The notes under the pieces: model-generated | What the model saw: only the letters and a program-made list of their open reading frames with translations | What the model was told of the DNA's origin: nothing | Database searches by the model: none | Shown here: positions 13,190 to 20,800 of the stretch, one piece after another | Position numbering within the stretch: position 1 is the stretch's first letter | Layout of the letters: every line of letters starts with the position of its first letter | Translations under genes and position numbers: made by a program | DNA from: Dehalococcoidia bacterium | GTDB taxonomy: Bacteria; Chloroflexota; Dehalococcoidia; Bin125 | Assembly: GCA_965232875.1 (NCBI GenBank) | Contig: OZ247431.1 | Location: forward strand, 1,720,376 to 1,784,375 | Length of the DNA stretch: 64,000 bases | Reading direction: 5' to 3'

Positions 13190-14371
13190 ATGGCCGAGAT
13201 GATCTGTGATCGCATCAAGGTGATCGACTCTGACACCCACGTTTCCGAGCCGGAAACGCTCTGGACCGACAGAATTTCCACTCAGAAATGGGGCGACCTC
13301 GTCCCCCACGTGATCTTCGATCCCGAGATCAACGAGGACCGCTGGGTCATGGGCGGCAAGAAGTTCATGCCCACCGCCGGCGCCGCGATGGCCGGCTGGA
13401 AGACTCCGCCGCCGAACCACCCGCCCAGCCTCAAGGAAGCCGACCACGGTAGCTGGGAAATCCACGAGCGCCTGCAGCGCATGGACGAGTACGGCATGCA
13501 CGCCCAGGTCGTCTACCCGAACGTCGGCGGCTTCGGCTCCGGCAACTTCCTGCAGATGACCGATGACGAGCTGCGCCTCGACTGTGTGCGCGCCTACAAC
13601 GACTTCCTGGTCGAGTGGACCTCGGTCGAGCCGTCGCGCTTCATCCCGATCATGGCGATGCCCTTCTGGGACGTGCAGGCCTGCGTCGACGAGATGCAGC
13701 GCGCCTACGACCGCGGGCACCGCGGTGTGTTGATGACTAACCAGCCGCACACCTTCGGACTGCCGCGCATCACTGAGCAGCACTGGGATCCGCTGTGGAA
13801 TCAGGCGCAGGACATGGGCCTGTCGATTAACTTCCACATCGGCTCCGGCGACCTCACCGAGCTGCGCAACGTGACCGTCGACAACGGCCGTCAGGCCGCC
13901 TACGCCAAATCGACCGTCAAGCTGTTCCTCGACAACTCGAACGCCATTCTCGACGTGATCCTCTCCGGCATGTGCCACCGCTTCCCAGAGCTGAAGATCG
14001 TCTCGGTCGAGTCCGGCGTTGGTTGGATTCCCTACCTGCTCGAAGCGATGGACTGGCAGTGGCTCAACTCCGGCTGCCGCGAAGAGCACCCGGAGATGGA
14101 CCTGCTGCCCTCTGAGTACTTCAAGCGCCAGTGCTACGGCTGCTTCTGGTTCGAAGAGGACTCGGTGCTCAAGGCAATCGAGTCGTTCGGCTCCGAGAAC
14201 TTCCTGTTCGAGACCGACTTCCCCCACCCGACTTCGATGTCGCCGGGCCCGAACTCAGTCGCCCGCAACCCGAAGGAGCACGTCGAGGAAGTCCTCAGCG
14301 TCCTGCCCGAGGAAGACCTGCTCAACGTCCTCCAACGAAACGCCGCCAAGGTCTACAACTTCGAGGTGTAG
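13190..14371 (+). CDS. Amidohydrolase-2 family metal-dependent hydrolase/decarboxylase (ACMSD/LigW-like)
   Basis: VIDSDTHVSEP…(HxH-type metal ligands), 393 aa, typical PF04909-like organisation. Confidence 0.75.
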   Translation: MAEMICDRIKVIDSDTHVSEPETLWTDRISTQKWGDLVPHVIFDPEINEDRWVMGGKKFMPTAGAAMAGWKTPPPNHPPSLKEADHGSWEIHERLQRMDEYGMHAQVVYPNVGGFGSGNFLQMTDDELRLDCVRAYNDFLVEWTSVEPSRFIPIMAMPFWDVQACVDEMQRAYDRGHRGVLMTNQPHTFGLPRITEQHWDPLWNQAQDMGLSINFHIGSGDLTELRNVTVDNGRQAAYAKSTVKLFLDNSNAILDVILSGMCHRFPELKIVSVESGVGWIPYLLEAMDWQWLNSGCREEHPEMDLLPSEYFKRQCYGCFWFEEDSVLKAIESFGSENFLFETDFPHPTSMSPGPNSVARNPKEHVEEVLSVLPEEDLLNVLQRNAAKVYNFEV

Positions 14372-14531
14372 TCGGCCTCACAAACCGGTTTTGAAACTTC
14401 GGGTCCGAACCGCGGTTCGGGCCCGAAGCGTAAACCTCGTGGCACGTGAGAAACATCGCTCCCGATACTCTACGGATTCAAGGGACCTCAGAACATTGAG
14501 GTTCTTCCCGAGGGTGGAAGAAGGAGTCGTC

Positions 14532-15131
14532 ATGGTATTTCGCTTATATGCTGGGGCCTCAGGCGCTTTGACACAAGGCTGGCACGTGGACTGCGATCCA
14601 GACAGGGATCCTAGCGAAGCAATGGCTATCGACATCGGTGCCTCAGTCGGAGACACCGTTCGCTTCCGAATCTACAACGATGGCTCGATTCCAATAACGT
14701 TTAGGTACCGAGTAGACAACGCAACTTTTCCCAGGGGAGTGACATCGTCCGTGATGGTAGAGGTTGATTCCGGGCCCACTAACTACGTTTTTCGATACAC
14801 ACACTTAGACGTTGAATCCACTATACCGGACGGTAGCTGGAGCGGTTACACCGCCGTACAGGCTGGCCAAACAGCGGGAAAGATTGTTGGAACTGTATCA
14901 GACGTATACAGTGATCTCGACTACTTGGGATACGCGGTGGTGGAGGGGAAGGAGACCTGCAAGAAGTCCGGCGGAACAACTGACGTGGGCGGACTTTGCT
15001 CCTCCGGGCCTCACCTACACCAGGCCGCTTCGGATGGATATACTGACCCTTGCCTAGCGCCCGGTGCCGCGCCAAGCAAAGGGTCGATCCCAAGCACCCT
15101 AAATGGTGGGACAGTGGTGTTTTCAGTCTGA
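14532..15131 (+). CDS. Hypothetical protein (about 200 aa) with weak M23-peptidase-like HxxxD … GPHLH motifs
   Basis: Strong RBS AAGGAG. AT-richer patch. WHVDCD and SSGPHLHQ motifs. No signal peptide. Confidence 0.4.
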   Translation: MVFRLYAGASGALTQGWHVDCDPDRDPSEAMAIDIGASVGDTVRFRIYNDGSIPITFRYRVDNATFPRGVTSSVMVEVDSGPTNYVFRYTHLDVESTIPDGSWSGYTAVQAGQTAGKIVGTVSDVYSDLDYLGYAVVEGKETCKKSGGTTDVGGLCSSGPHLHQAASDGYTDPCLAPGAAPSKGSIPSTLNGGTVVFSV

Positions 15132-15164
15132 GCTTGTGCTGCCGGTTGAGATCGGGCGCTGCAT

Positions 15165-16133
15165 ATGGCGATGCGAACAGTCTCGTGGCTCGTCGCAACA
15201 GCCTTCTTGACCTTGCTCATGACCGCGTGCGCGAATGCTCCAGATGATGATCTCGCACGGCTGGAGCGAATCACGCTGGAGGGTACAAATGCGCTGCCTC
15301 GGTTCTTACATGTTTATGATGCCAAAGGCCAACTTGTTGTAACATGGCTGAGCGATCGCGGGCCGATTGGCTGGATAGAAGATCCAGAAACACTCCTGTT
15401 TATTGGATCCACGTCCCAAGGAATTGAATTAGTTACTGGTGATCCCAGTGACGCTACGACATACCGTCTTGCATCTCACGTCCGCGGCTTTGTGAGCGTT
15501 GCGGATCAACCCGATATGTTGATCATGGAGGATGGTGATGAAGTACGTCAACTGCCTCTGCCTGGCCGCTTGGTAAGATCTGCATATCCACCAGGATTCG
15601 AATACGCGGCGGGGCCACTGCGTGTAGAAGACGAGGAAGTATGGTTTGGCGAGACACGGCTCCTCGCCAATCGCGGCCTGACGTTCGCCTTGCTCGCTTC
15701 ACCCAGCGGTCGGTGGGTGGTCGTGTTGGAGATGCAAGGGCACGGTTCACGCATCGAGTACCGTCTCAGCGCTGGTGAGGACGTACCGCAGGTTGTTGTC
15801 GTTCCGGATGACGCACCCTTATCTGAAACGCCATCGCCCTCGGCCTTGTCACCACTCGGGACCAGAGTTGCGCAAGTCGAGCCGCTACGGACGTTGCTCA
15901 ACTATCGTGACGGGGTGTTGCTCTGGCACGATCCAAACGGCGGTGATCCTGATGTGTGGTGGTCCCCCGACGGCAGCTACTTCACGTACTTCTCCTGGGA
16001 CGACCGTCTGATGGTTGCCGACCAGGACGGCCAGGTGCGTGTCGCCCTCCGAGGTCTCCGGCGACACCAGTTCCGCGGCTGGAGCGGAGATGCCATCAGC
16101 TGGCGCATTTGGACAGTCGGCGGGCATCCGTAG
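15165..16133 (+). CDS. Lipoprotein with PD40/TolB-like beta-propeller repeats
   Basis: Signal peptide plus lipobox LLMTAC. WSPDGSYFTYFSWDD-type repeats. Confidence 0.55.
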   Translation: MAMRTVSWLVATAFLTLLMTACANAPDDDLARLERITLEGTNALPRFLHVYDAKGQLVVTWLSDRGPIGWIEDPETLLFIGSTSQGIELVTGDPSDATTYRLASHVRGFVSVADQPDMLIMEDGDEVRQLPLPGRLVRSAYPPGFEYAAGPLRVEDEEVWFGETRLLANRGLTFALLASPSGRWVVVLEMQGHGSRIEYRLSAGEDVPQVVVVPDDAPLSETPSPSALSPLGTRVAQVEPLRTLLNYRDGVLLWHDPNGGDPDVWWSPDGSYFTYFSWDDRLMVADQDGQVRVALRGLRRHQFRGWSGDAISWRIWTVGGHP

Positions 16134-16207
16134 TTGCCCCGAGCCAAGTCGCCCACTGCCGACTTGTTTGTCCTTATCCTGAGGCGAAGCGGAATTTGAG
16201 GGCGTCT

Positions 16208-16804
16208 ATGACAACTGAGACCGGGCTCCTGACCGCTTGCGACCTGCTGCGCCTGCACAGTCAGGGCGTTCGCGGCGAGCTGATCCGGGGAGTCCTCATC
16301 GCGCGACAACCAGGCGGGATCGAGAGCGGAGCGATCATTGCCAACTTCGCAATGGAGCTCGGCAATTTCCTGAATGACAAGCGCGTCGGTCGAGGCGCAG
16401 TCGGATCTGGCTATTGGCTGGAACGTGACCCGGATACGGTTCGCGAAGCCCAAGTCGGCTACATCTCGTCGGAACGACTACCGCTGCACCAACGATGTAC
16501 CGGCTACGCCGAAGTTGCGCCAGACCTGGTGGTGGAAGTACAGGGCTTCAACCGAGAATGGCTTGAGGTCAACGACAAGGCCCGCATGTGGCTCAGCTTC
16601 GGCGTGCGATTGGTCTGGGTCGTGCGTCCGAGGGATCGCACGGTCGATGTCCATCGAGCGGGACGCTTGACGGAGTCGATTGGCGAAGATGGCGACTTGG
16701 AGGGCCTCGACGTTCTGCCGGGGTTCAGGTGTTCGTTGGCGTCGATCTTCGGCCCACAGGCTATTCAGGCCTCTCGACGGGGCATTCGCTACACTGCCGA
16801 TTGA
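16208..16804 (+). CDS. Uma2-family (DUF820) putative endonuclease
   Basis: Size and …APDLVVEVQ…WLEVN…MWLSFGVRLVWVV… pattern typical of Uma2 proteins. Confidence 0.65.
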   Translation: MTTETGLLTACDLLRLHSQGVRGELIRGVLIARQPGGIESGAIIANFAMELGNFLNDKRVGRGAVGSGYWLERDPDTVREAQVGYISSERLPLHQRCTGYAEVAPDLVVEVQGFNREWLEVNDKARMWLSFGVRLVWVVRPRDRTVDVHRAGRLTESIGEDGDLEGLDVLPGFRCSLASIFGPQAIQASRRGIRYTAD

Positions 16805-16852
16805 ACTGAAATCCGCAGGCGCGCGTGCGCCTCACAGAGAGGAACTCGAACG

Positions 16853-18157
16853 ATGGAAATGCAGAATGTCGTCATCGTTGACGGCGCTCGCTCCGCTTTC
16901 GCCCGTGGTGGCCGTGGCGCGTTCACGGCGACCCGCCTCGACACCATTGGCGTCCAGGTGCTCCAGGAACTGCTGGGACGCTACCCGCAGCTCTCCCCGC
17001 ATGACATTGAAGACGTCGGCATGGGCTGCGTCGGCGGCGTGACCGAACTCGCCGGTATCGGCGCCAACCACATCGTGCGACTGGCCGGCCTGCCCGAGTC
17101 CGTCTGCACCTTCGACTCCAACCGCCAGTGCGGCTCCTCCATGGAGACCATGCACCGCGTCGCGCAGGAGATCATGGTCGGCGCGATTGACGTCGGCGTG
17201 GCGCTCGGCGTCGAGCGCATGGGCCGACAGCTCGGCGGCGGCGGCGGCGCGGAACCGACCCGCATCACCGAGTTCAACCAGGACCGCCACAACATGACGG
17301 AAGACCAGCGCAACCTGGCCCCGTCGCACAACCTCGACTTCTCCGTTCCGATTCCGGACGAGATTCTCGACTCTTCGCCGGTCACCTCGATGCTGCAGAC
17401 CGCCCAGAACGTCGCCGAGATGTACAACATCTCCCGCGAGGAACTGGACGAGTTCGCGGTCGAGTCGCACCGCAAGTACGGCGAGGCGCTGGCCTCGGGC
17501 TTCTACCAGGGCGAAATCGTCCCGATCGAGGTCGAAATGCCGGTCTTTGACGACGAGGGCAACCTGCTGCTCGACGAGCGCGGCGAGAAGCGCACAGTCG
17601 AGGTCGACGAGGGCTTCCGCCCGGGCACGAACTTCGAGGGCCTCAGCGGTCTGCGCACCGTGCGCGGCACCGTCTCCCACACGCAGAGCGAAATCCGCAT
17701 CACGGCGGGCAACAGCTGCCCGACCAACGACGGCTTCACCGCCGCGCTGCTGATGAGCGAGCGCAAGGCGGACGAGCTCGGCCTCGAGCCGCTGGCTCGC
17801 ATCGCCGGCTTCGGCGTCGGTGGCGTCAAGCCGCAGGTCATGGGCCTCGGCCCGATCCCGGCGACCCGCAAGGCCATGGCCCACGCTGGCATCGACGCCT
17901 CGGAAATCGACCGCGTCGAGTTCAACGAAGCCTTCGCCGCACAGGTCATCCCGTCGGTCAAGGAACTCGGCATCGACATGGACAAGGTGAACGTCAACGG
18001 CGGTTCGCTGGCCATCGGTCACCCATTGGGCGCCACCGGCACCCGCCTCGTCACCACCGTCGCGCGAGAGCTCAAGCGCTCCGGCGGCCAGTACGGCCTC
18101 GCCACCCAGTGCATCGGCGCTGGCATGGGCATCAGCACGATCATCGAGGCTGTCTAG
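16853..18157 (+). CDS. Acetyl-CoA acetyltransferase / thiolase family
   Basis: VVIVDGARSAFARGGRGAF…NRQCGSS…, C-terminal …GNSCPTNDGF…CIGAGMG. 434 aa. Confidence 0.85.
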   Translation: MEMQNVVIVDGARSAFARGGRGAFTATRLDTIGVQVLQELLGRYPQLSPHDIEDVGMGCVGGVTELAGIGANHIVRLAGLPESVCTFDSNRQCGSSMETMHRVAQEIMVGAIDVGVALGVERMGRQLGGGGGAEPTRITEFNQDRHNMTEDQRNLAPSHNLDFSVPIPDEILDSSPVTSMLQTAQNVAEMYNISREELDEFAVESHRKYGEALASGFYQGEIVPIEVEMPVFDDEGNLLLDERGEKRTVEVDEGFRPGTNFEGLSGLRTVRGTVSHTQSEIRITAGNSCPTNDGFTAALLMSERKADELGLEPLARIAGFGVGGVKPQVMGLGPIPATRKAMAHAGIDASEIDRVEFNEAFAAQVIPSVKELGIDMDKVNVNGGSLAIGHPLGATGTRLVTTVARELKRSGGQYGLATQCIGAGMGISTIIEAV

Positions 18158-18264
18158 CTTCGAGCCAACTGGCAAAAGCCACAAGCGGGCGCGGGGATCA
18201 ACCCCCGCGCCCGCTTTGCGCTATAGGAACAAGTGGGCTACATTGTGCGCATGGAGCAGAACGC

Positions 18265-19269
18265 ATGACTCACTTCACACTTGACCGCATGCCAAAGGCC
18301 TTGCAACCGCACCTAGAGTTGGTCACCGTACCTTCTGATCCGATCCCTGGTGAACCTCTCTGCACGAATCGAATCTATCGCGGCGATGCCCGCGCTCTGC
18401 TGCCGGACATTATGCCCAACAGCATTGCGCTCAGCGTCTGGTCGCCACCGTATTTCGTAGGAAAGTCCTATGAGGAGTCGTGGACGTTCGATGAGTGGCA
18501 GTCCTTACTCCGGGACGTGATCGCCGCGCACTGGCGCATCATCAGCCCCGGAGGATTCCTGGCCATCAACATCGCAGACATTCTGTGCTTTCGCGACCCA
18601 GACATGCCCCGCATTTCCGCTGAAACTCACACCTCCCGGCGAAGCCCGGTGACCCGTGAAGACGTGCTCTCGGCGATGGCAACGTATCCAGAGAAGAACC
18701 GCCATCAAATTGCGGCAATGCTTGGTTGCAGTGAACAAACCGTTGATAGGCGATTGAACGGCAACAATGTCCGTGGTGGCAAATATGAGCCACAGACTCG
18801 CGTGAAAATCGTTGGAGGGCTGGTAGAAGAGTGGGCAACAGACGCAGGCTTTTTCCCGTACGACCGTCGCATTTGGGTAAAGGACCCGTGCTGGGCCAAC
18901 AGCCGATGGTCCAGCGTCTCCTACCGAGCCGTAGACGAATACGAGTACATCTACATGTTCTGGAAGCCTGGAGTCACGAAGGTAGACAAGTCACGACTTG
19001 CTGCTGAGGAATGGAGCGATTGGGGATCTAGAGGGGTCTGGCAATTCCCGTCCGTCCAGAAAAATGACGCTCACGAGGCGATGTTCCCTATTGAACTGCC
19101 CACTCGCCTAATCCGCATGTTGAGCGAACCTGGGGACACCATCCTCGATTGCTTTGTTGGCAGCGGCACCACAGCCGTTGCAGCGGGACGTTTGGACCGG
19201 TTGTTCATCGGAATCGACAACGATGAACAGGCGGTAGCCACGGCACGCGCACGCGTTGCTTTTGGATAG
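18265..19269 (+). CDS. Beta-class N4-cytosine/N6-adenine DNA methyltransferase (motif IV SPPY … motif I FVGSGTT), with an inserted wHTH-like segment
   Basis: SVWSPPYF near the N-terminus and DCFVGSGTTAVAAGRLDRLFIGID near the C-terminus. This is the PF01555-type circularly permuted beta order. Confidence 0.8.
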   Translation: MTHFTLDRMPKALQPHLELVTVPSDPIPGEPLCTNRIYRGDARALLPDIMPNSIALSVWSPPYFVGKSYEESWTFDEWQSLLRDVIAAHWRIISPGGFLAINIADILCFRDPDMPRISAETHTSRRSPVTREDVLSAMATYPEKNRHQIAAMLGCSEQTVDRRLNGNNVRGGKYEPQTRVKIVGGLVEEWATDAGFFPYDRRIWVKDPCWANSRWSSVSYRAVDEYEYIYMFWKPGVTKVDKSRLAAEEWSDWGSRGVWQFPSVQKNDAHEAMFPIELPTRLIRMLSEPGDTILDCFVGSGTTAVAAGRLDRLFIGIDNDEQAVATARARVAFG

Positions 19270-19283
19270 CGCTGGATTGCCCG

Positions 19284-20000
19284 ATGCTCATCGATCCTTC
19301 TGACCTCAAGTCAGATCTCGACACTCTGGAAGGAATCGAAAAGGCCTCAATGAGGCTTGTCACCCAAGCCATCGTCGATTTCCGAGATGAGGCCTCGGCG
19401 ATCTTCAACAGCGAAACCGATCTCCCCCAGGACTTCGCGGAAGACATCACCCGAGAGGCTCTGGACCAATTGGGTGTCTCGAGAATCCCTCAGCGCCTGT
19501 ATGGCAAAATTGACTACAAGCGGGCGCGTTATGTGTTTCACCCGGACTATGCCTTGAGACAGGCGCTCTTCGTCGATTCCAAAGCGGAGAAGACAAGTGG
19601 GAGATCCACGGCGACGCTCCAGATCGCACAAACTTCGCTGAAGATTATGCACGTAAGAGCCGGATCGGCAGTAGAGGTCCAAGGCACCCTCGAGCCGATC
19701 ATCCACTCAGAGAGCGGCAGTTTCCTTTCTACGACCATCTTCGTCAAATACAACTACGAAGAAGACGAAGATGGCTCCACAACACTCGATTCGATCACTG
19801 TTGCCTGTGTCCCGCACGCATTCCTTCAAGACAAATACAACCCTGACTCCGAGAACACCATTTGGCGCGCTGGTAGAAACGCTCAGACGCTCGGCGAAGC
19901 GTTTCGCGTTCGCTTAGTCTTTCGCCTTCTTAAGGAGCGCGCTGTTTGGCGCGTCCAGCAAGTGCCGGCGACTCCCAGTTCTTTCGAGTGGCTCGAATGA
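19284..20000 (+). CDS. Candidate Type II restriction endonuclease (PD-x9-DxK) cognate to the upstream methyltransferase
   Basis: Starts 15 bp after the MTase stop on the same strand. AT-richer than the flanks. Contains …VFHPDYALRQALFVDSKAEK… = PD…(D/E)xK nuclease signature. No other recognisable family. Confidence 0.5.
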   Translation: MLIDPSDLKSDLDTLEGIEKASMRLVTQAIVDFRDEASAIFNSETDLPQDFAEDITREALDQLGVSRIPQRLYGKIDYKRARYVFHPDYALRQALFVDSKAEKTSGRSTATLQIAQTSLKIMHVRAGSAVEVQGTLEPIIHSESGSFLSTTIFVKYNYEEDEDGSTTLDSITVACVPHAFLQDKYNPDSENTIWRAGRNAQTLGEAFRVRLVFRLLKERAVWRVQQVPATPSSFEWLE

Positions 20001-20042
20001 CTTCACGCCGGTTTGGAGACCTTATTTCTGCCAATAGCCGCT

Positions 20043-20390
20043 CTAGCTGCATCTGTAAGGACTGTTCGGCATCCTACTATTGGTGACAATCACTCTGAAG
20101 TCCTTCAGTCCGACTCTATGAGCAATCTCTGTCATCTCGCGTCTCAGATCGTGTGTGAAGACATCTAGAGGGGCTATGCGACCGCACTGCCAGCACTGAT
20201 GTCTGTAGATGTTAATCGGGGTGGTGGAGAGTTCAAGTCGTATACCTCCTGAACCACGATGCGGCAGTGCGTGACCACAACTCTTTGTCGGTGTGTGCGT
20301 CAGCCTCTTTCGGATCCACTTGGCACCTGAGGAGGTCACCTTTGTCGCTAGCTGTACGCCAAGGGCTGTTACGAGTGTCTCGACGACCAT
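20043..20390 (-). CDS. Hypothetical 115-aa Cys-rich protein convergent with the putative REase
   Basis: ORF in the same AT-richer patch. CGH…CWQCG motifs. Alternative (GTG) start. Weak support. Confidence 0.25.
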   Translation of the reverse strand: MVVETLVTALGVQLATKVTSSGAKWIRKRLTHTPTKSCGHALPHRGSGGIRLELSTTPINIYRHQCWQCGRIAPLDVFTHDLRREMTEIAHRVGLKDFRVIVTNSRMPNSPYRCS

Positions 20391-20759
20391 TTCTTTGCCT
20401 TCCTGCGAGCGGCTCGGCTAGTGAGGCCAGACGAGTTTCTGATCAACAGAATACTTGATTTCCCAATTCCTTGCAGTTAGAAGCTTCGAGCAGCCGCCGA
20501 TGTCGTCGGTTTCACAATGGTCGCCGAGACATGACCTACCACCCGCCACGCCCGTCAGGCTCACCCGCCCAACCTCGATTGCCAACGAGATTCCCGAAGC
20601 GCCGATCCCGCGCCCAACCCACAGAACATCCGTCCGCATACCATGGACAAGAACGCCCACCGCCGCCGCCCAGGAACGAGAGGTGACCCAACCCAACAAC
20701 CCGGACAATCCCAGAATCTCCTGCTCATTCCGAGCGCCAGACTCCACAAATCATGGCGA

Positions 20760-20800
20760 AATCTGGACAGATCTGGACGAATCTGGACAAATCTGAACAC
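20760..20800. promoter_or_regulatory. Four direct repeats of ATCTGGACA with about 11-bp phasing upstream of the Cu amine oxidase gene
   Basis: aATCTGGACAgATCTGGACGaATCTGGACAaATCTGAACA, about 125 bp upstream of the ATG at 20924. Confidence 0.45.

What the first reader, a model, noticed from the sequence alone, without database searches (positions are those of the whole stretch)
18265..20390. AT-rich islet encoding a candidate novel Type II R-M pair (beta-class SPPY methyltransferase + PD-x9-DxK nuclease)
A PF01555-type methyltransferase has motif IV SPPY before motif I FVGSGTT, and an inserted wHTH-like segment (…EKNRHQIAAMLGCSEQTVDRRLNG…). It is followed 15 bp later by a 238-aa ORF with no recognisable family. 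That ORF carries the catalytic signature …HPD-x9-DSK… of PD-(D/E)xK nucleases. Both genes are markedly AT-richer than the flanks, which suggests horizontal acquisition. A convergent Cys-rich 115-aa ORF shares the islet. If it is real, the specificity is unassigned.
Basis: partly seen in the sequence, partly recalled or inferred. Interest (0 to 1): 0.7.

Follow-up and report, generated by a model that had tools for sequence, protein, structure and literature searches.

The report
Ordinary SfiI-family restriction-modification gene pair
The two genes are a real restriction-modification pair, but the nuclease belongs to the well-known SfiI family rather than a new one, so this is an uncharacterised member of a known, widespread defence system.

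Summary

- **Nuclease (19284-20000, 238 aa):** It matches Pfam PF11487 "RestrictionSfiI" (E 1e-46) and the SfiI crystal structure sequence (E 1.9e-30, 34% identity). Its AlphaFold model superposes on SfiI (TM 0.83) and BglI (TM 0.74).
- **Catalytic residues:** By homology these are E53, D77, D98 and K100.
- **Methyltransferase (18265-19269, 334 aa):** It is a beta-class PF01555 enzyme with an SPPY motif IV, so I predict it makes N4-methylcytosine. A family-invariant three-helix HTH-like unit sits where the target-recognition domain lies.
- **Family and selection:** Thousands of homologues exist. M lies directly upstream of R in 18 of 19 loci where both genes are present. Both genes are under purifying selection (dN/dS about 0.06).
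- **Location:** The pair sits at a fixed syntenic site between thiolase and copper amine oxidase in related Dehalococcoidia-type genomes. This site carries different defence-type genes in different relatives.
- **115-aa ORF:** It is not Cys-rich and is not an obligate partner of the R-M pair.
- **Specificity:** It is probably GGCCN5GGCC-like, but this is unproven.

The parts
18183..18216 (.). GC-rich perfect hairpin (14-nt arms, 6-nt loop) after the thiolase stop codon. It is the likely terminator that separates thiolase from the R-M operon.
18216..18256 (+). Inferred promoter and ribosome-binding site of M: TTGCGC (18216-18221), 17 nt, TACATT (18239-18244), then GGAG (18253-18256) 8 nt before the ATG. 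The TTG and GGAG are invariant in the alignment of seven related upstream regions.
   Evidence: The consensus promoter scan did not reach its threshold, so this is inference only.
18265..19269 (+). M gene: beta-class DNA methyltransferase, 334 aa, predicted to make N4-methylcytosine. Motif IV SPPY is at nt 18442-18453 and motif I FVGSGTT at nt 19153-19173.
   Evidence: PF01555 E 2.9e-38. PADLOC MTase_II PDLC03260 E 2.6e-136. Fold matches TTHA0409, rotifer N4CMT, CcrM and M.PvuII. The exact 334-aa product is on public record. dN/dS 0.064.
18655..18759 (+). Three-helix HTH-like unit (aa 131-165) inside the variable region between motifs IV-VIII and X-I, where the target-recognition domain of beta-class MTases lies.
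   Evidence: AlphaFold helices 131-140, 146-153 and 157-165. Residues P142, R146, L153, C155-T159, D161-R163 and G166-N168 are invariant in 50 family members. Weak HTH_23 hit.
19284..20000 (+). R gene: SfiI-family PD-(D/E)xK Type II restriction endonuclease, 238 aa. Catalytic residues are E53 (nt 19440-19442), D77 (19512-19514) and D98-S-K100 (19575-19583). Base-contact candidates are the G197-R-N-A-Q201 loop (19872-19886) and R208/R210 (19905-19913).
   Evidence: PF11487 E 1e-46. PDB 2ezv E 1.9e-30. 34% identity to SfiI. Model TM 0.83 to SfiI. Residue conservation. dN/dS 0.057.
20043..20390 (-). Convergent small ORF (115 aa) of a rare family with an invariant C-x-H ... C-W-x-C-G motif. Function unknown. 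It is not an obligate partner of the R-M pair.
   Evidence: Homologues found. It occurs next to R-M in L012, L013, L018, L020 and L021. It occurs without R-M in L019. It is absent from R-M loci L002 and L004. It is disrupted in L001 and L017.

Best explanation
This is a two-gene Type II restriction-modification operon of the SfiI family. It sits in a variable spot that carries defence-type genes, between the thiolase and copper amine oxidase genes. The host is probably a Dehalococcoidia-class (Chloroflexota) chromosome.

**How it most likely works**
- M is transcribed first. It is a beta-class S-adenosylmethionine-dependent enzyme. It should methylate N4 of a cytosine in an interrupted G/C-rich palindrome. 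It probably reads the site through the conserved helix-turn-helix-like unit in its target-recognition region.
- R lies 14 nt downstream in the same operon. It is a Mg2+-dependent PD-(D/E)xK nuclease built like SfiI and BglI.
- R uses E53, D77, D98 and K100 for catalysis. It uses R208, R210 and the G-R-N-A-Q loop (G-R-N-A-P in the rest of the family) to read the G/C half-sites. It cuts unmethylated sites inside the spacer.
- The most likely target is GGCCN5GGCC, or at least contains the GCCN5GGC core.

**Shown here:** family membership, fold, conserved catalytic and recognition residues, M-R linkage, purifying selection.

**Inferred:** the methylated base, the recognition sequence, the cleavage position, the oligomeric state, and the promoter.
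For: - **R family and fold:** PF11487 at 160 bits against a cut-off of 25. PADLOC REase_II E 1.4e-31. SfiI 2ezv aligned over residues 11-229 against 9-239, E 1.9e-30. AlphaFold model pLDDT 89, with TM 0.83 to SfiI and 0.74 to BglI.
- **Catalytic residues:** SfiI E55/D79/D100/K102 align with E53/D77/D98/K100, all invariant in 45 homologues. PMC2760798 gives the SfiI active site and shows D79A and D100A are inactive.
- **Recognition residues:** SfiI R218 and R220 align with R208 and R210, both invariant. Their roles come from PMC548270 and PMC3458533.
- **M:** PF01555. The SPPY motif is invariant in the family. The fold matches beta-class N4/N6 MTases.
- **Linkage:** M is immediately upstream of R on the same strand in 18 of 19 loci where both genes are present. 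The gap is 13-14 nt or the genes overlap (one 56-nt gap, L007); L010 is convergent.
- **Selection:** against L012, dN/dS is 0.064 for M and 0.057 for R.
- **Composition:** the islet is at the GC minimum of the window.
Against: - Identity to SfiI is only 34%, a level at which specificity can differ.
- SfiI K208 and S210 are Arg198 and Ala200 here, in nearly the whole subfamily.
- The position of SfiI R109 (predicted contact to the outer G) is Arg here. In the subfamily it is variable: Q21, A11, R7.
- SfiI Y68, important for communication within the tetramer (PMC2082129), aligns with Ser.
- The 238-aa protein ends at a point that aligns about 20-30 residues before the end of the 269-aa SfiI.
- This copy has a private P201Q change in the recognition loop. 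In the sampled alignment 44 of 45 members (this copy is the exception), and SfiI itself, have Pro there. That could weaken the enzyme.
- GGCCN5GGCC (4 observed, 2.0 expected) and GCCN5GGC (51 observed, 37.9 expected) are not avoided in the window. There is therefore no compositional support for either site.
- I could not obtain the M.SfiI sequence for a direct comparison.
Confidence: 0.9

Rival explanations
1. It is a SfiI-fold R-M pair, but this 238-aa subfamily has a recognition sequence and/or quaternary behaviour different from SfiI. For example it may be a BglI-like dimer reading GCCN5GGC or another interrupted palindrome.
For: - 34% identity to SfiI.
- K208 to R and S210 to A are fixed in the subfamily. 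The R109-equivalent is not conserved.
- SfiI Y68 aligns with Ser, and the protein lacks the C-terminal end of SfiI.
- There is a weak BglI Pfam hit at the C-terminus, E 8.2e-5.
Against: - The two Arg residues that read the shared GCC/GGC core are invariant.
- The model is closer to SfiI (TM 0.83) than to BglI (TM 0.74).
- Lys to Arg is a conservative change for a guanine contact.
Confidence: 0.3
2. The R gene of this particular copy is attenuated or inactive because of the private P201Q change in the recognition loop, so the methyltransferase effectively acts alone.
For: In the sampled alignment every member except this copy (44 of 45), and SfiI itself, have Pro at this position. Even the 96%-identical L012 copy has Pro.
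Against: - The ORF is intact and all four catalytic residues and both Arg residues are present.
- dN/dS is 0.057 against L012.
- A single loop substitution need not abolish activity.
- An assembly or sequencing error (CCG to CAG) cannot be excluded.
Confidence: 0.1
3. It is a three-gene system in which the convergent 115-aa C-x-H/C-x-x-C protein controls or assists the R-M pair, as a substitute for a controller protein.
For: Homologues lie convergent to R in L012, L013, L018, L020, L021 and the L003/L014-L016 group. A frameshifted remnant sits next to R in L001, which has different flanking genes.
Against: - The ORF is present without any R-M pair in L019, beside the amine oxidase and HNH_2/Mrr_N genes.
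- It is absent from R-M loci L002 and L004.
- It is disrupted in L001 and L017 while M and R stay intact.
- It has no HTH and no Pfam, NCBIfam, PADLOC, PHROG or PDB match.
- dN/dS against L012 is uninformative: 7 changes, ratio 0.8.
Confidence: 0.08
4. One reading: the 238-aa protein founds a new nuclease family, with an HPD-x9-DSK active site.
For: The literal string exists. Position 88 is acidic in 39 of 45 homologues.
Against: - There are strong matches to PF11487 and to the SfiI structure.
- D88 aligns with His90 of SfiI and is Gly in close relatives L001 and L017.
- D77 is the invariant counterpart of SfiI D79, which mutagenesis showed to be essential (PMC2760798).
Confidence: 0.01

Closest known systems
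SfiI restriction-modification system of Streptomyces fimbriatus (R.SfiI, PDB 2ezv/2f03; GGCCNNNN^NGGCC; Type IIF tetramer)
   Same: - Same Pfam family (PF11487) and same fold (TM 0.83).
- Same catalytic tetrad E/D/D/K.
- The same two Arg residues that read the G/C half-site.
- Paired with a methyltransferase.
   Different: - 34% identity, and the protein ends about 20-30 residues before the C-terminus of SfiI.
- K208 to R and S210 to A in the recognition loop.
- Y68 to S at the position implicated in subunit communication.
- The R109 position is not conserved in the subfamily.
- Recognition site and oligomeric state are untested.
BglI restriction endonuclease (PDB 1dmu; GCCNNNN^NGGC; dimer)
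   Same: It is a related PD-(D/E)xK beta-lineage fold (TM 0.74, E 3.2e-11). There is a weak PF14562 hit over residues 152-226. It has an equivalent catalytic tetrad and equivalent Arg/Lys contacts (PMC548270, PMC3458533).
   Different: Only 17% identity in the structural alignment, and BglI is 299 aa. The window protein is clearly nearer to SfiI.
Beta-class N4-cytosine/N6-adenine DNA methyltransferases (PF01555), e.g. TTHA0409 (2zig), M.PvuII (1boo), rotifer N4CMT (8s9m)
   Same: Same motif order (IV before I) and same Rossmann-type catalytic core. SPPY is the form of motif IV typical of N4-cytosine enzymes (established knowledge of the family).
   Different: The region between the two conserved halves (about aa 111-224) does not align with solved structures. 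It carries a family-specific three-helix HTH-like unit.

Membership tests
SfiI family of Type II restriction endonucleases (PF11487) | Sequence match to the family profile above the curated threshold | tested here: met
   160.1 bits against a cut-off of 25, E 1e-46. phmmer against SfiI 2ezv gives E 1.9e-30.
SfiI family of Type II restriction endonucleases (PF11487) | PD-(D/E)xK fold superposable on SfiI | tested here: met
   Model pLDDT 89. Foldseek against 2ezv_B gives TM 0.83, rmsd 3.4, E 2.9e-20.
SfiI family of Type II restriction endonucleases (PF11487) | Catalytic residues E55, D79, D100, K102 (SfiI numbering) | tested here: met
   E53, D77, D98 and K100 are aligned and invariant in 45/45 homologues. 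Their roles come from PMC2760798.
SfiI family of Type II restriction endonucleases (PF11487) | Base-contacting residues K208, S210, R218, R220 and R109 (SfiI numbering) | tested here: inconclusive
   R218 and R220 are conserved as R208 and R210. K208 is Arg and S210 is Ala. R109 is Arg in this copy but variable in the subfamily. There is a private P201Q change (PMC548270).
SfiI family of Type II restriction endonucleases (PF11487) | Recognition of GGCCNNNNNGGCC with cleavage in the spacer | not testable with these tools
   Site counts in the window show no avoidance and have no statistical power.
Type IIF (tetrameric, two-site) enzymes such as SfiI | Homotetramer that must bind two sites | not testable with these tools
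   Only indirect hints exist: SfiI Y68 aligns with Ser, and the C-terminal end of SfiI has no counterpart.
Beta-class DNA N4/N6 methyltransferases (PF01555) | Profile match above threshold, and motif IV (xPPY) N-terminal to motif I (FxGxG) | tested here: met
   132.5 bits against a cut-off of 26.7. SPPY is at aa 60-63 and FVGSGTT at aa 297-303.
N4-cytosine-specific subgroup of PF01555 | Ser-Pro-Pro-Tyr/Phe form of motif IV; the actual product is m4C | tested here: inconclusive
   The SPPY motif is present and invariant in the family. The base actually modified was not and cannot be determined here.
Type II restriction-modification system | Separate M and R genes that are adjacent and co-inherited | tested here: met
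   M is directly upstream of R in 18 of 19 loci where both genes are present. Both genes are under purifying selection.
Type II restriction-modification system | M and R act on the same DNA sequence | not testable with these tools
   This needs a methylome and cleavage assays.
Controller (C-protein) regulated R-M systems | A small HTH (Xre-type) C protein gene in the operon | tested here: not met
   No such ORF is present. The 115-aa ORF has no HTH or any family hit and is not consistently linked to the pair.

The most novel reading that the evidence does not exclude
The 238-aa clade may be a functionally distinct branch of the SfiI fold. This clade is widespread in Chloroflexota and Acidobacteriota metagenomes, has an Arg/Ala recognition loop, and lacks SfiI's Tyr68. 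It might have a new interrupted-palindrome specificity or dimeric single-site behaviour. Its partner MTase might read DNA through an internal HTH module. Separately, the thiolase/amine-oxidase gap may be a lineage-specific hot spot for defence-type genes that also harbours a new small zinc-binding-type protein family.
Probability: 0.25. Interest if true: 0.3.

Novelty: new member of a known kind. Interest (0 to 1): 0.12.

Why it matters
It matters little beyond annotation. The finding adds one uncharacterised copy to a family that Pfam, PADLOC and NCBI already recognise and that has thousands of metagenomic members.

There is modest practical value. SfiI is a widely used 8-bp rare cutter, and the abundant 238-aa clade has not been shown here to share its specificity. 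A representative could give an isoschizomer, or a new rare-cutting specificity with a different (non-tetrameric) mechanism.

The comparison also shows a fixed chromosomal site in a Dehalococcoidia lineage where different defence-type genes come and go.

Tried and rejected
- **Site avoidance as a proxy for specificity:** GGCCN5GGCC has 4 matches against 2.0 expected, and GCCN5GGC has 51 against 37.9. There is no depletion, and a 64-kb window has no statistical power.
- **Source contig:** the exact look-up for the R protein was not on record. The organism is therefore inferred only from syntenic relatives: L004 is labelled as a Dehalococcoidia MAG, with thiolase 88% identical.
- **Literature:** the SfiI crystal-structure paper (PMC1356319) is not held. 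Contact residues were taken from PMC548270, PMC3458533 and PMC2760798. Searches for M.SfiI and for methylomes carrying GGCCN5GGCC found nothing usable. The m4C assignment therefore rests on the SPPY motif and general family knowledge.
- **Mobility signatures:** there are no flanking direct repeats around the islet and no tRNA in the window.
- **Transcription signals:** the consensus promoter scan found none. The promoter I propose rests only on conserved TTG, TA and GGAG positions. No terminator-like fold lies between R and the convergent ORF.
- **The 115-aa ORF:** it has no Pfam, NCBIfam, PADLOC, PHROG or PDB-profile match. I considered it as a controller-like third component and rejected that as unlikely, because its presence is independent of the R-M pair.
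- **Alternative GTG start for M at 18109:** rejected. It would overlap the thiolase gene and the terminator hairpin. The 334-aa form matches homologues end to end and is the product on public record.
Full report
**Observation**

The region holds three ORFs.
- A 334-aa ORF at 18265-19269 (+).
- A 238-aa ORF at 19284-20000 (+), 14 nt downstream of the first.
- A convergent 115-aa ORF at 20043-20390 (-).

The first ORF carries SPPY at aa 60-63 and FVGSGTT at aa 297-303. The segment EKNRHQIAAMLGCSEQTVDRRLNG is at aa 143-166.

The islet is 55.2% GC against 61.5% for the window. It ranks 5th lowest of 1238 windows of 2126 bp, and the window minimum starts at 18401. GC3 is 0.64 in both genes, against 0.90, 0.80 and 0.77 in the thiolase, amine oxidase and aminotransferase genes. 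So the sequence-level observations hold, apart from small slips. The gap is 14 nt rather than 15. The third ORF has 4 Cys in 115 residues and is not Cys-rich.

**The nuclease**

The claim that the 238-aa protein has no recognisable family is wrong.
- It matches Pfam PF11487 (RestrictionSfiI) at E 1e-46, 160 bits against a cut-off of 25. It also has a weak BglI hit at the C-terminus.
- It matches a PADLOC Type II REase model at E 1.4e-31.
- It matches the sequence of the SfiI crystal structure 2ezv at E 1.9e-30, over residues 11-229 against 9-239 of SfiI. Identity is 34%.
- An AlphaFold model built on 45 homologues (pLDDT 89, pTM 0.89) has SfiI as its best PDB match (TM 0.83, E 2.9e-20). BglI is second (TM 0.74). 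Nothing else is significant.

The SfiI active site is E55, D79, D100 and K102, and the D79A and D100A mutants are dead (PMC2760798). These residues align with E53, D77, D98 and K100, all invariant in 45 of 45 family members.

It is Gly in close relatives and varies in the family. The true motif is therefore E53 ... D77-x20-D98-S-K100, not HPD-x9-DSK.

**Specificity**

SfiI R218 and R220, together with K208 and S210, read the inner base pairs. R109 was proposed to read the outer G (PMC548270; PMC3458533 states the contact predictions were later confirmed crystallographically).

Here R208 and R210 are invariant. K208 is Arg198 and S210 is Ala200 in almost the whole subfamily. The R109 position is Arg in this copy but Q, A or R elsewhere. 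A GCCN5GGC-type core is therefore well supported by homology, and the full GGCCN5GGCC site is plausible but unproven.

Neither site is depleted in the window, which is uninformative at this size. This copy also has a private P201Q change in the recognition loop. In the sampled alignment 44 of 45 members (this copy is the exception), and SfiI itself, have Pro there, as does the 96%-identical relative L012.

**The methyltransferase**

- It matches PF01555 at E 2.9e-38.
- It matches one PADLOC Type II MTase model almost end to end at E 2.6e-136.
- Its nearest solved relatives are beta-class N4/N6 enzymes: TTHA0409, rotifer N4-cytosine MTase, M.MboIIA, CcrM and M.PvuII.
- The SPPY form of motif IV is invariant in 50 homologues. 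From general knowledge of the family, it is the form typical of N4-cytosine enzymes. That fits a nuclease family whose known sites contain only G and C.

The region between the two conserved halves does not align with solved structures. In the AlphaFold model it contains three helices at 131-140, 146-153 and 157-165, at good confidence. Many of its residues are invariant across the family.

I read this unit as part of the target-recognition domain rather than as an inserted regulatory domain. That reading is inference.

**Linkage, selection and regulation**

R has 1679 detectable homologues and M has 4728. Several are already named 'SfiI family type II restriction endonuclease' by NCBI. The exact M (334 aa) and R (238 aa) sequences are already in NCBI and ENA, from a 3.33-Mb contig.

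In 18 of 19 fetched loci where both genes are present, M lies immediately upstream of R on the same strand. The gap is 13-14 nt or the genes overlap, with one 56-nt gap in L007. One locus, L010, is convergent.

Against the closest relative, L012, dN/dS is 0.064 for M and 0.057 for R. Both genes are therefore maintained by selection.

Upstream of M there is a perfect hairpin after the thiolase gene. Conserved TTG, TA and GGAG positions follow it, consistent with an own promoter and ribosome-binding site. The consensus scan did not call a promoter there. There is no controller-protein gene.

**Genomic setting**

The order Amidohydro_2 - Uma2 - thiolase - M - R - (variable genes) - copper amine oxidase - aminotransferase recurs, in whole or in part, in L002, L004, L012, L014 and L017. 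The nearest named genome is a Dehalococcoidia MAG.

The R-M pair has therefore been at this site since these genomes diverged. R identity across them is 79-96%. Its composition is nevertheless foreign-looking, and the family is spread over Chloroflexota, Acidobacteriota and other phyla. No flanking repeats or tRNA mark the islet.

The stretch downstream of R is variable.
- In the window, L012, L013, L018, L020, L021 and the L003/L014-L016 group it holds the small ORF.
- In L002 it holds Hypoth_Ymh plus HNH_2 genes.
- In L019 there is no R-M pair. The small ORF sits there with HNH_2 and Mrr_N genes.

Divergence from L012 is mosaic. The dS values are 0.74 for M, 0.36 for R, 0.13 for thiolase and 0.025 for the small ORF. 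This suggests allelic recombination within the islet.

**The 115-aa ORF**

It belongs to a rare family of about seven 50%-identity clusters of 87-118 aa. The family has an invariant C-x-H ... C-W-x-C-G motif and a hydrophobic N-terminus. It has no match in Pfam, NCBIfam, PADLOC, PHROGs or the PDB.

Protein-level conservation at 25-37% identity argues that it is, or was, a real gene. Three facts argue against it being an obligate partner of the R-M pair.
- It is frameshifted in L001 and interrupted in L017.
- It is missing from R-M loci L002 and L004.
- It is present without R-M in L019.

I treat it as an independent gene in the same variable region.

**Verdict**

This is a bona fide but ordinary Type II R-M operon of the SfiI family, so it is a new member of a known kind. 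It is wrong on novelty, on the catalytic motif, and on the 'Cys-rich' description. The open points are the exact recognition sequence, the oligomeric state of this short subfamily, and whether the P201Q copy is fully active. All three need experiments.

Noticed in passing
window 20760-20798: Four head-to-tail 10-nt units (AATCTGGACA, GATCTGGACG, AATCTGGACA, AATCTGAACA) lie in the intergenic stretch upstream of the copper amine oxidase. Homology places that gene's start at about 20921 (M57 of the listed ORF), not at 20753. A matching pair of units occurs at the same place in L012.
   Followed up: partly
window 14372-16195: An extra ~1.8 kb of low-GC DNA (0.52-0.58) lies between Amidohydro_2 (13190-14371) and the Uma2 gene (16196-16804). 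Amidohydro_2 and Uma2 are separated by only about 0.1-0.6 kb in syntenic loci L012, L014 and L017. The stretch holds a 322-aa lipoprotein-like ORF (15165-16133) with no family match. It is a second variable islet in the same neighbourhood.
   Followed up: partly
window 19884-19886 (R residue 201): A private Pro-to-Gln change (CAG) sits in the G-R-N-A-P loop, which aligns with the SfiI K208-P211 recognition loop. In the sampled alignment every member except this copy (44 of 45), SfiI, and the 96%-identical L012 copy have Pro. It could be attenuation, a neutral change, or an assembly error.
   Followed up: partly
window 16850-20750 compared with L012: Divergence is mosaic. Nucleotide identity is mostly 94-99% in thiolase, 79-90% in M, 88-96% in R and 96-98% in the small ORF. 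The dS values are 0.13, 0.74, 0.36 and 0.025 in the same order. This suggests recombination or allele replacement inside the islet.
   Followed up: partly
L002 6752-8271; L019 1538-5505: At the same thiolase/amine-oxidase site, relatives carry other defence-type genes: Hypoth_Ymh and HNH_2 in L002, and HNH_2 and Mrr_N in L019. The site behaves as a hot spot for such genes.
   Followed up: partly
window 16196-16804: A Uma2-family (PF05685, 'putative restriction endonuclease') gene lies two genes upstream of M. It is syntenic in relatives, and L001 has three tandem copies. No link to the R-M pair was found.
   Followed up: no
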